A DNA stretch of 64,000 bases from the NCBI RefSeq assembly GCF_000027125.1, contig NC_017626.1, one strand, 5' to 3'. Shown here piece after piece: positions 42,107 to 43,920 of this stretch. Numbering within the stretch: position 1 is the stretch's first letter; each line of letters starts with the position of its first letter. Both the position numbers and the translations under genes were made by a program. The stretch comes from Escherichia coli 042 (GTDB lineage Bacteria > Pseudomonadota > Gammaproteobacteria > Enterobacterales > Enterobacteriaceae). A model generated the notes under the pieces. That model saw only the letters and a program-made list of their open reading frames with translations. It was not told the origin of the DNA and searched no databases.

Positions 42107-42240
42107 ATGCCCTCGTCGCATCAGGTAACCTTGCCGGTACCTGATGCGCTCCGGATTCTGTGGGTCGGATAAGGCGTTCACGCCGCATCCGACAGTCGAG
42201 CATCAATGCCTGATGCGCCTTTTATCAGGCCTACCGAACG
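42107..42240. repeat. REP / BIME cluster downstream of ycfP
   Basis: Repeated GCCGGATGCGGCGTGAACGCCTTATCCGAC type palindromic units. Confidence 0.5.
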
Positions 42241-42505
42241 CCCTCCATACACACCTCACTCTATATCACTCTCACAAATTCGCTCAAATAATAAACAACA
42301 AACTCTGTTTTTTGATCTCACCCGGTAAAGTCGCCTATCTTTTCAGCAACAAAACTTGATTAACATCAATTTTGGTATGACCAATGCACCATTCATGTTA
42401 TTCTCAATAGCGAAGAACATTTTCATTGCTGTAACCTGTTGTTAATTAAGAGCTATATTAATAACTATTAATTAACAATTGGTTAATAAATTTAAGGGGG
42501 TCACG

Positions 42506-43810
42506 TTGACTACGCCATTGAAAAAAATTGTGATTGTCGGCGGCGGTGCTGGTGGGCTGGAAATGGCAACACAGCTGGGGCATAAGCTGGGACGCAAGAA
42601 AAAAGCCAAAATTACGCTGGTCGATCGTAACCACAGCCACCTGTGGAAACCGCTGCTGCACGAAGTGGCGACTGGCTCGCTTGATGAAGGCGTCGATGCG
42701 TTGAGCTATCTGGCCCATGCGCGCAATCATGGTTTCCAGTTCCAGCTGGGTTCCGTCATTGATATTGATCGTGAAGCGAAAACAATCACTATTGCAGAAC
42801 TGCGCGATGAGAAAGGTGAACTGCTGGTTCCGGAACGTAAAATCGCCTATGACACCCTGGTAATGGCGCTGGGTAGCACCTCTAACGATTTCAATACGCC
42901 AGGTGTCAAAGAGAACTGCATTTTCCTCGATAACCCGCACCAGGCGCGTCGCTTCCACCAGGAGATGCTGAATCTGTTCCTGAAATACTCCGCCAACCTG
43001 GGCGCGAATGGCAAAGTGAACATTGCGATAGTCGGCGGCGGCGCGACGGGTGTAGAACTCTCCGCTGAATTGCACAACGCGGTCAAGCAACTGCACAGCT
43101 ACGGTTATAAAGGTCTGACCAACGAAGCCCTGAACGTAACGCTGGTAGAAGCGGGCGAACGTATTTTGCCTGCATTACCGCCACGTATCTCTGCTGCGGC
43201 CCATAATGAGTTAACGAAACTTGGCGTTCGCGTGCTGACGCAAACCATGGTCACCAGTGCTGATGAAGGCGGCCTGCATACTAAAGATGGCGAATATATT
43301 GAGGCTGATCTGATGGTGTGGGCAGCCGGGATCAAAGCGCCAGACTTCCTGAAAGATATCGGTGGTCTTGAAACTAACCGTATCAACCAGCTGGTGGTGG
43401 AACCGACGCTGCAAACCACCCGCGATCCAGACATTTACGCTATTGGCGACTGCGCGTCATGCCCGCGTCCGGAAGGGGGCTTTGTTCCGCCGCGTGCGCA
43501 GGCCGCACACCAGATGGCAACCTGCGCAATGAACAACATTCTGGCGCAGATGAACGGTAATCCGCTGAAAAATTATCAGTATAAAGATCACGGTTCGCTG
43601 GTATCGCTGTCGAACTTCTCCACCGTCGGTAGCCTGATGGGTAACCTGACGCGCGGCTCAATGATGATTGAAGGACGAATTGCGCGCTTTGTATACATCT
43701 CGCTGTACCGAATGCACCAGATTGCGCTGCATGGTTACTTTAAAACCGGATTAATGATGCTGGTGGGGAGTATTAACCGCGTTATCCGTCCACGTTTGAA
43801 GTTGCATTAA
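42506..43810 (+). CDS. ndh: Type II NADH:quinone oxidoreductase (NDH-2)
   Basis: TTG at 42506 (AAGGGGG 5 nt upstream) gives 434 aa (M)[16 protein letters not shown]; the track ORF starts at an earlier TTG at 42479. Confidence 0.88.
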
Positions 43811-43920
43811 TCGGCTTGTACTGGCGGATGGGGCATAAACGCCTTATCCGCCCTGGACAAATGGTACGAGCGGTAGGCCTGATAAGACGCGTTAAGCGTC
43901 GCATCAGGCATTCCTTCAGA
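43811..43920. repeat. REP / BIME cluster downstream of ndh
   Basis: GGCGGATAAGGCGTTTATGCC / GCCTGATAAGACGCG...CGCATCAGGC palindromic units. Confidence 0.5.

What the first reader, a model, noticed from the sequence alone, without database searches (positions are those of the whole stretch)
42107..43920. Several unoccupied REP/BIME clusters elsewhere in the window
REP clusters downstream of ycfP (42107-42240), ndh (43811-43920) and cobB (56780-56905) have the same palindromic unit structure as the site occupied by the IS1397-like element. They are potential further insertion targets and useful markers when comparing strains.
Basis: inference. Interest (0 to 1): 0.15.

Follow-up and report, generated by a model that had tools for sequence, protein, structure and literature searches.

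The report
Ordinary REP/BIME repeats, real IS landing sites

Summary
A REP core pattern hits five times in 64 kb (0.00 expected), and every hit lies in the three named intervals, downstream of ycfP, ndh and cobB. A sixth, degenerate unit and a REP-head palindrome are also present. The units match published Y and Z2 consensus sequences at 28-34 of 35-37 positions. The cobB cluster is a classic BIME-1 (Z1, L linker with an IHF-like site, Y).

Among 5,426 complete E. coli genomes:
- **IS1397** sits in the loop of the ndh Z2 REP in 33 records, in both orientations with target duplication GTTA. It sits in the cobB Y REP in 1 record and in the ycfP cluster in none.
- **IS621**, a second REP-specific element and the bridge-RNA recombinase, has its natural 11-nt target ATCAGGCCTAC exactly once in each cluster. 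It occupies the ycfP, ndh and cobB clusters in 11, 10 and 10 records.

The clusters are also polymorphic. K-12 has a 17-bp deletion in the ndh cluster, some strains have a 69-bp REP-REP deletion in the ycfP cluster, and there is an 8-bp length variant.

All of this matches known REP/BIME biology. It is already known and of low interest. Roles in mRNA stability and translation are inferred, not tested.

The parts
42117..42148 (.). Perfect 11-bp inverted repeat with a 10-nt loop (CGCATCAGGTA ... TACCTGATGCG), made of two REP 'head' halves. It starts 10 nt after the ycfP stop codon (42104-42106).
   Evidence: It is identical in K-12, MEI003 and O104:H4.
42160..42194 (+). Y-type REP, GTGGGTCGGATAAGGCGTTCACGCCGCATCCGACA. 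The foot reads GTGG instead of GTAG. The loop GTTC (42176-42179) is a plausible IS1397 target, but none of the 5,426 genomes carries an insertion there.
   Evidence: (32/35 to the Y consensus). The core is identical to IS1397-occupied Y REPs at fdhE-yiiF, hemN-yshB and srmB-yfiE.
42207..42234 (-). Short Z1-like REP (GTAGGCCTGATAAAAGGCGCATCAGGCA on the minus strand). It contains the IS621 target ATCAGGCCTAC at 42224-42234(+), which IS621 occupies in 11 records.
   Evidence: The O104:H4 allele of this unit is 8 bp longer.
43822..43856 (-). Degenerate Y-type REP with no GTAG foot. Its stem starts 12 nt after the ndh stop codon (43808-43810).
   Evidence: 28/35 to the Y consensus.
43873..43910 (+). 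Z2-type REP, GTAGGCCTGATAAGACGCGTTAAGCGTCGCATCAGGCA. The IS1397 insertion point and duplication GTTA lie at 43891-43894 (33 records). The IS621 target is at 43873-43883(-) (10 records).
   Evidence: (34/37 to the Z2 consensus). The unit is intact in 3,784 of 5,426 genomes and carries a 17-bp deletion in K-12.
56792..56821 (-). Z1-type REP of a BIME-1, starting 12-13 nt after the cobB stop codon (56777-56779). The IS621 target is at 56811-56821(+), occupied in 10 genomes.
56822..56854 (.). BIME-1 L linker. It holds an IHF-like site, ATTCAATTAATTG, on the minus strand at 56831-56843, which differs from WATCAANNNNTTR at one position.
   Evidence: Read directly from the sequence. It aligns with the L linkers of other BIME-1 copies. 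The whole cluster matches a median of 17 places per genome. The statement that L linkers frequently carry an IHF site comes from PMC3333891.
56855..56889 (+). Y-type REP of the BIME-1, GTGGGCCAGATAAGGCGTTCGCGCCGCATCCGGCA. Its loop GTTC (56871-56874) is the IS1397 insertion point in strain SK1402.
   Evidence: (31/35 to the Y consensus).
20933..22364 (-). Context only: the window's own IS1397 copy. It is 1432 bp, orfA and orfB are both open, and there is an A7G slippery motif. It splits a REP (halves at 20912-20932 and 22365-22383) with duplication GTTT. A second REP lies at 22396-22427.
   Evidence: The internal 1381 bp match an annotated IS1397 copy at 100% identity. The same junction is found in only 4 genomes.

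Best explanation
The three stretches are members of the E. coli REP (palindromic unit) family, arranged as BIMEs in the 3' intergenic regions of ycfP, ndh and cobB.
- The ycfP cluster is atypical: a REP-head palindrome, a Y unit and a short Z1-like unit.
- The ndh cluster is a tail-to-tail pair of a degenerate Y unit and a Z2 unit.
- The cobB cluster is a canonical BIME-1: Z1, an L linker with an IHF-like site, then Y.

Shown here: they are natural landing sites for two REP-specific insertion sequences that use different parts of the unit. IS1397 is an IS3-family DDE transposase element. It inserts into the central loop of Y or Z2 units and duplicates 3-4 bp. IS621 is an IS110-family bridge-RNA recombinase element. 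It recombines at the CT core of ATCAGGCCTAC at the foot of Z1 and Z2 units. The clusters also change by REP-REP deletion, which makes them polymorphic between strains.

Inferred from published REP biology, not tested here:
- When transcribed, the hairpins protect the upstream mRNA from 3' exonucleases.
- Because each first hairpin begins 10-13 nt after the stop codon, they may also lower translation of ycfP, ndh and cobB through ribosome stalling at termination.
- The BIME-1 linker binds IHF.
- The family is dispersed and maintained by the RAYT (TnpA-REP) transposase, whose gene lies outside this window.
For: Family membership:
- 5 pattern hits against 0.00 expected.
- 28-34 of 35-37 positions identical to the published Y and Z2 consensus (PMC2817692; the same three REP types are listed in PMC11208160).
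- All units are extragenic.
- The clusters recur elsewhere in the genome, with a median of 7 places per genome for the ycfP cluster and 17 for the cobB cluster at megablast stringency.
- RNA folds are stable, z = -4.2 to -7.5.

IS1397 targeting:
- 33 records at the ndh Z2 loop, in both orientations.
- 1 record at the cobB Y loop.
- 16 junction pairs at 13 loci all lie in Y or Z2 loops with 3-4 bp duplications.

IS621 targeting:
- There are exactly 3 ATCRGGCCTAC sites in the window, one per cluster, against 0.06 expected.
- This is the published natural IS621 target (PMC11208160).
- That paper's list of natural targets contains the ndh and cobB sites verbatim.
- Junction counts are 11, 10 and 10 records, and two cases were checked by annotation and sequence.

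Polymorphism.

The rule that REPs within 15 nt of a stop codon lower translation is from Liang 2015, as cited in PMC12306157. BIME-1 architecture and the IHF site are from PMC3333891. No intrinsic terminator follows ndh or cobB.
Against: - Nothing contradicts the identification.
- The functional roles (mRNA stabilisation, translational damping, IHF binding) are not tested for these three loci.
- Three of the six units lack the GTAG foot that TnpA-REP needs, reading GTGG, GTGG and CCAG, so they may be inert for RAYT.
- IS1397 was never found in the ycfP cluster, although its Y core is identical to Y REPs occupied elsewhere.
- Occupancy counts are records, not independent events. Several records are duplicate assemblies of one strain or clonal relatives.
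- The 16-junction sample was retrieved with queries carrying Y or Z2 flanks, so it is biased against finding Z1 insertions.
Confidence: 0.93

Rival explanations
1. The repeats are REPs but have no function for the host. On this reading they are selfish or neutral RAYT-dispersed DNA that happens to sit in permissive 3' intergenic space, and IS elements accumulate there because insertions are harmless.
For: - The clusters tolerate deletions (17 bp in K-12; 69 bp in MSHS 133), length variants and 1.3-1.4 kb IS insertions in dozens of strains.
- Sequence identity across strains is lower than in the flanking genes.
- Half of the units have lost the GTAG foot.
Against: - All three first hairpins lie 10-13 nt from the stop codon, which is within the published <=15-nt window for translational effects.
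- The ycfP palindrome is invariant in the four strains where that stretch was aligned in full (window, K-12, MEI003, O104:H4), and its left arm is unchanged in MSHS 133, where the 69-bp deletion rebuilds the right arm.
- The BIME-1 linker retains an IHF-like site.
- No alternative terminator follows ndh or cobB.
- None of these points is decisive.
Confidence: 0.3
2. The hairpins are gene-specific intrinsic terminators or private regulatory stem-loops that only resemble REPs.
For: They sit exactly where terminators are expected and fold stably. One weak terminator-like match overlaps the ycfP cluster at 42200-42216.
Against: - No T-tract follows the ndh or cobB hairpins, and terminator-like matches are no more frequent than in shuffles.
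- The units match the repeated Y, Z1 and Z2 consensus sequences and recur many times per genome.
- REP-specific IS elements recognise them.
Confidence: 0.03
3. The palindromes are chance GC-rich inverted repeats.
For: None beyond their short length.
Against: 5 hits against 0.00 expected in 100 shuffles, and 3 IS621-target hits against 0.06 expected.
Confidence: 0

Closest known systems
E. coli REP / palindromic units (Y, Z1, Z2) organised as BIMEs (Stern, Higgins, Gilson, Bachellier; Ton-Hoang 2012, PMC3333891)
   Same: The units share the consensus sequence, the imperfect palindrome with an AA/GC stem mismatch, the extragenic 3' location, the inverse-orientation pairs and the polymorphism between strains. 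The cobB cluster has the exact BIME-1 layout of Z1, L linker and Y.
   Different: Three of the six units carry a mutated foot (GTGG or CCAG instead of GTAG). The ycfP cluster is atypical, with a head-to-head REP-half palindrome and a shortened third unit. The ndh pair is a single copy rather than the tandem array typical of BIME-2.
IS1397 target sites (IS3 family; Bachellier 1997, Clement 1999, Wilde 2001 and 2003, as cited in PMC1525189 and PMC3184786)
   Same: Insertion occurs in the central loop of the palindromic unit with a 3-4 bp duplication. This is seen at the window's own copy and at the ndh and cobB REPs in other strains.
   Different: The ycfP Y REP is sequence-compatible but is unoccupied in all 5,426 genomes. 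No Z1 unit was hit, although the sample is small and biased.
IS621 natural targets (IS110 family bridge-RNA recombinase; Choi 2003; Durrant 2024, PMC11208160)
   Same: The 11-nt target ATCAGGCCTAC at the REP foot is present once in each cluster. Natural insertions occur at all three sites, and the ndh and cobB sites appear in the published list of natural targets.
   Different: None. The window itself carries no IS621 sequence.
RIP/RIB elements (IHF-binding BIME-1; Boccard and Prentki 1993, Oppenheim 1993)
   Same: The cobB cluster has the Z1-L-Y layout, and its linker contains TTCAATTAATTG, close to the IHF consensus and to the linkers of other BIME-1 copies.
   Different: IHF binding at this copy was not tested. 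The site has one mismatch to WATCAANNNNTTR.

Membership tests
E. coli REP (palindromic unit) | A 30-40 nt imperfect palindrome matching the Y, Z1 or Z2 consensus | tested here: met
   The pattern gives 5 hits against 0.00 expected. Identity to the published consensus is 32/35, 31/35 and 28/35 for Y and 34/37 for Z2. The Z1 unit GCCTGATGCGCTACGCTTATCAGGCCTAC is identical to the Z1 query sequence printed in PMC11208160.
E. coli REP (palindromic unit) | A conserved GTAG tetranucleotide 5' of the palindrome foot, required for TnpA-REP binding | tested here: inconclusive
   GTAG is present in 3 of 6 units (the ycfP Z1-like unit, ndh Z2 and cobB Z1). The two Y units read GTGG and the degenerate ndh Y unit reads CCAG. 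The requirement itself is from PMC3333891.
E. coli REP (palindromic unit) | Extragenic location and many copies per genome | tested here: met
   All units lie between ORFs. The median number of places per genome at megablast stringency is 7 for the ycfP cluster and 17 for the cobB cluster.
BIME-1 (RIP/RIB) | One Z1 and one Y unit in inverse orientation, separated by the conserved long L linker, as a single copy | tested here: met
   In the cobB cluster, Z1 is at 56792-56821, the 33-nt linker at 56822-54 and Y at 56855-89. The linker aligns with those of BIME-1 copies at fdhE-yiiF and srmB-yfiE. The definition is from PMC3333891.
BIME-1 (RIP/RIB) | IHF binds the L linker | not testable with these tools
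   Only a near-consensus site can be shown: ATTCAATTAATTG on the minus strand at 56831-56843, with 1 mismatch to WATCAANNNNTTR.
BIME-2 | Y and Z2 units with a short S linker, usually in tandem copies, and a gyrase target | tested here: inconclusive
   The ndh cluster has a degenerate Y unit and a Z2 unit placed tail-to-tail with a 16-nt spacer, as a single copy. I did not compare the linker with the S motif, and gyrase binding cannot be tested here.
IS1397 target site | IS1397 inserted in the loop of the unit with a 3-4 bp direct duplication | tested here: met
   Met for ndh Z2 with 33 records and duplication GTTA, and for cobB Y with 1 record and duplication GTTC. Not observed in the ycfP cluster, 0 of 5,426 genomes.
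IS621 target site | The 11-nt target ATCAGGCCTAC (ATCGGGCCTAC is tolerated) with a CT core at the REP foot, and insertion in a fixed orientation | tested here: met
   One site is present in each cluster. Natural insertions are found in 11, 10 and 10 records. The junction sequence ...ATCAGGCCT|TGTATTATCC... is seen in TCM3e1. The target definition is from PMC11208160.
REPIN/RAYT system | An associated rayT (tnpA-REP) gene that mobilises the repeats | not testable with these tools
   No rayT gene lies in the 64-kb window, and the rest of this genome is not available. In strain R6 a rayT gene lies next to an IS1397-occupied REP.

The most novel reading that the evidence does not exclude
The ycfP-ndh Y REP may be specifically protected from IS1397. 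Its 24-nt core is identical to Y REPs that IS1397 occupies at three other loci, yet none of 5,426 genomes, 1,707 of which carry full-length IS1397, has an insertion there. IS621 does use the neighbouring unit in the same cluster. This could mean selection against disrupting the region upstream of ndh, or a local DNA or protein context that blocks the IS1397 transposase.
Probability: 0.07. Interest if true: 0.25.

Novelty: already known. Interest (0 to 1): 0.1.

Why it matters
The finding matters little for discovery. REP/BIME elements, their polymorphism, and their use as targets by IS1397 and IS621 are textbook E. coli biology.

The practical value is modest:
- The three sites are confirmed presence/absence markers for strain comparison. 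The alleles are IS1397, IS621, the 17-bp and 69-bp deletions and the 8-bp variant.
- They are natural landing pads for the IS621 bridge recombinase.
- Insertions at these sites sit next to ndh, ycfJ, cobB and ycfZ and could change their expression in the strains that carry them.

Tried and rejected
- A fixed-spacer REP pattern found nothing because the inner stems differ in length between Y, Z1 and Z2. I replaced it with a variable-gap pattern.
- The K-12 RefSeq record lists no REP features in this region, so I could not take the annotation from it.
- The primary IS1397 papers and Liang 2015 are not held in the library. I used secondary citations instead.
- My first IS621 composite query repeated the IS end three times. 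The tool joined the three pieces, so coverage no longer separated occupied from unoccupied sites. I redesigned the junction queries.
- Supplementary Table 3 of PMC11208160 is truncated in storage and did not yield the BL21 insertion coordinates. Supplementary Data 2 did contain the ndh and cobB targets.
- Loci fetched in parallel were not all copied to the script machine, so I exported the junctions through DNA alignment.
- I considered calling the ndh site an IS1397 'hotspot' and rejected it. There are 7,608 IS1397-matching places in the collection, some 1,790 of which are only a short end relic, spread over several hundred REP targets per genome, and the counts are inflated by clonal relatives. 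On that background 33, 4, 1 and 0 records per site are not clearly non-random.
- I did not run a cross-species scan of genome contigs, because the identification did not need it.

Full report
**Where the window comes from.** The window is E. coli chromosome covering flg, rne, rluC, the fab genes, ptsG, fhuE, nagZ, ycfP, ndh, ycfJ, mfd, the lol genes, cobB, ycfZ, the pot genes and pepT. A 3-kb query around ndh matches 5,422 of 5,426 complete E. coli genomes at 95-99.5% identity, with those gene names annotated. Rfam gathering-threshold hits are only the rne 5' UTR element and SraB, neither near the finding.

- Reading the sequence shows REP-like palindromes immediately after the stop codons of ycfP, ndh and cobB.
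- A REP core pattern with 14 specified bases and a variable inner spacer matches 5 times, against 0.00 expected in 100 dinucleotide shuffles.
- A fixed-spacer version found nothing because the Y, Z1 and Z2 inner stems differ in length.
- Half-site scanning and inverted-repeat detection add a degenerate Y unit at 43822-43856 and a perfect 11-bp palindrome of two REP heads at 42117-42148.
- Against the E. coli Y and Z2 sequences printed in Nunvar 2010 (PMC2817692), the units score 32/35, 31/35 and 28/35 for Y and 34/37 for Z2.
- The cobB Z1 unit is identical to the Z1 query sequence printed in Durrant 2024 (PMC11208160).
- The clusters fold far better than shuffles as RNA, with z = -4.8, -7.5 and -4.2.
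- They recur elsewhere in each genome, with a median of 7 places for the ycfP cluster and 17 for the cobB cluster at megablast stringency.

**Anatomy of the three clusters.**
- ycfP-ndh holds the REP-head palindrome (42117-42148), a Y unit (42160-42194, foot GTGG) and a short Z1-like unit (42207-42234, foot GTAG on the minus strand).
- ndh-ycfJ holds a degenerate Y unit (43822-43856) and a Z2 unit (43873-43910, foot GTAG), placed tail to tail.
- cobB-ycfZ lies between convergent genes. It holds Z1 (56792-56821), a 33-nt linker and Y (56855-56889), which is the BIME-1 layout described in PMC3333891.
- The cobB linker carries ATTCAATTAATTG, one mismatch from the IHF consensus, and aligns with the linkers of other BIME-1 copies.
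- The first hairpin begins 10, 12 and 12-13 nt after the respective stop codons.
- No canonical intrinsic terminator follows ndh or cobB.

**The IS1397 copy in the window.** It lies at 20933-22364 and is 1432 bp long. Both reading frames are open and there is an A7G slippery motif. Its internal 1381 bp are 100% identical to an annotated IS1397 copy in strain NY1601. It splits a REP between rluC and yceF with a GTTT duplication. That exact junction region is found in only 4 genomes. At least one of them (HCP5S3_I2), and by match pattern two more, carry the element in the neighbouring REP of the same cluster, not in the window's REP.

**Are the three clusters IS1397 targets?** I built junction queries (flank plus IS end, both orientations) and searched 5,426 complete genomes.
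- ndh-ycfJ is occupied in 33 records: 31 in one orientation and 2 in the other.
- In MEI003 and Z1323CEC0015 the element sits in opposite orientations at the identical position, duplicating GTTA (window 43891-43894) in the Z2 loop. That means at least two independent events.
- cobB-ycfZ is occupied in one record, SK1402, in the Y loop with duplication GTTC.
- ycfP-ndh is occupied in none.
- Full-length IS1397 is present in 1,707 of the 5,426 genomes.
- Sixteen junction pairs from 13 loci all lie in the central loop of Y-type or Z2-type units, with 3-4 bp duplications and in both orientations.
- This sample was retrieved with Y or Z2 flanks, so it is biased against Z1.
- The ycfP Y core GGATAAGGCGTTCACGCCGCATCC is identical to the occupied Y REPs at fdhE-yiiF, hemN-yshB and srmB-yfiE. 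It is therefore a plausible but unused target.

**A second REP-specific element, IS621.**
- Durrant 2024 states that the natural IS621 target is ATCAGGCCTAC within REP elements, with ATCGGGCCTAC tolerated.
- The window has exactly three such sites, one per cluster, against 0.06 expected.
- That paper's Supplementary Data 2, which lists natural target sequences for the IS621-type guide, contains the ndh Z2 REP plus linker verbatim (seq75, with an allelic variant seq316). It also contains the cobB Z1 plus L linker verbatim (seq208).
- Junction searches give IS621 at ycfP-ndh in 11 records and at ndh-ycfJ in 10 records, and at cobB-ycfZ in 10 genomes.
- Annotation and sequence confirm the ycfP-ndh case in TCM3e1, with junction ...TTATCAGGCCT|TGTATTATCC.... 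Annotation confirms the ndh-ycfJ case in strain 504838.
- The window itself has no IS621 sequence.

**Polymorphism.**
- The intact ndh Z2 REP is present in 3,784 of 5,426 genomes. K-12 carries a 17-bp deletion that destroys it.
- The ycfP cluster is present over at least 80% of its length in 5,141 genomes. About 1,150 records show only 80-90% identity.
- O104:H4 has an 8-bp longer third unit in the ycfP cluster.
- MSHS 133 has lost 69 bp, including the Y unit, between two direct CCTGATGCGC repeats.
- The cobB cluster is 90-95% identical in about half of the records.

**Mechanism.**
- Shown here: these are REP/BIME units, and IS1397 (loop) and IS621 (foot) insert into them in nature.
- Inferred from published work: the transcribed hairpins stabilise upstream mRNA. 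REPs within 15 nt of a stop codon stall terminating ribosomes and lower protein output (Liang 2015, as cited in PMC12306157), and all three clusters qualify by distance.
- Also inferred: BIME-1 linkers bind IHF, and TnpA-REP needs the GTAG foot and the stem mismatch (PMC3333891). Only three of the six units keep GTAG.

**Verdict.** It is extended by the IS621 result, which shows that the one cluster IS1397 has not used is nevertheless an IS target. Everything fits established REP/BIME, IS1397 and IS621 biology, so the finding is already known and of low interest.

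Noticed in passing
window 56770-56802; L002 17340-17360: K-12 lacks one T of the TTATAAAG sequence present in the window and in SK1402. 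This removes the cobB TAA stop and extends K-12 CobB by 6 codons, so that its TGA stop lies inside the Z1 REP (GCCTGATGC).
   Followed up: partly
L019 1203-1290 (K-12 NEB 5-alpha, between yhhI/ISEc1 and yhhJ): K-12 is usually treated as free of IS1397, yet it carries a relic of about 62 nt of the IS1397 right end, still fused to half of a Y REP and followed by a BIME-1 linker. The same 38-nt core match is the only IS1397 hit in roughly 1,780 genomes that lack the element.
   Followed up: partly
L017 2511-2660 (strain MSHS 133), corresponding to window 42140-42208: A 69-bp deletion between two direct CCTGATGCGC repeats (REP heads) removes the Y unit of the ycfP cluster. It fuses the palindrome's right arm to the third REP.
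   Followed up: yes
L016 1887-3438 (HCP5S3_I2; by match pattern also LCP30S3_I5 and JNE12-007): In HCP5S3_I2 IS1397 lies in the second REP of the rluC-yceF cluster (the unit at window 22396-22427), not in the REP occupied in the window. This is an independent insertion into the same cluster. LCP30S3_I5 and JNE12-007 give the same 2-piece match 46 bp longer than the query but were not fetched.
   Followed up: yes
L020 2813-5054 (strain TCM3e1): The IS621 copy inserted at the ycfP-ndh REP is itself interrupted by an IS3-family element, giving a nested insertion. Its transposase is annotated as two partial pieces.
   Followed up: no
L010 1-1950 (strain R6): An IS1397 copy sits in the REP immediately downstream of a rayT (REP-associated tyrosine transposase) gene, that is, inside a REPtron-type BIME.
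   Followed up: no
window 63515-63541: Downstream of pepT there is a perfect hairpin, GGATGCGGCATGTGATGCCGCATCC, followed by GGC. Its arms resemble REP heads (GCCGGATGCGGC) but it has no REP tail, so it may be a REP remnant or simply the pepT terminator stem.
   Followed up: no
L011 3209-3235 (strain FDAARGOS_943): This IS1397 copy has an extra GTTCA at its right end (GGGGTTCAGTTCAGTTCA), and its transposase is annotated only as 'IS3 family'.
   Followed up: no
window 42107-42116, 43811-43822, 56780-56791: All three REP clusters begin only 10-13 nt after the stop codon of the upstream gene. This is inside the published <=15-nt window in which REPs reduce translation.
   Followed up: partly
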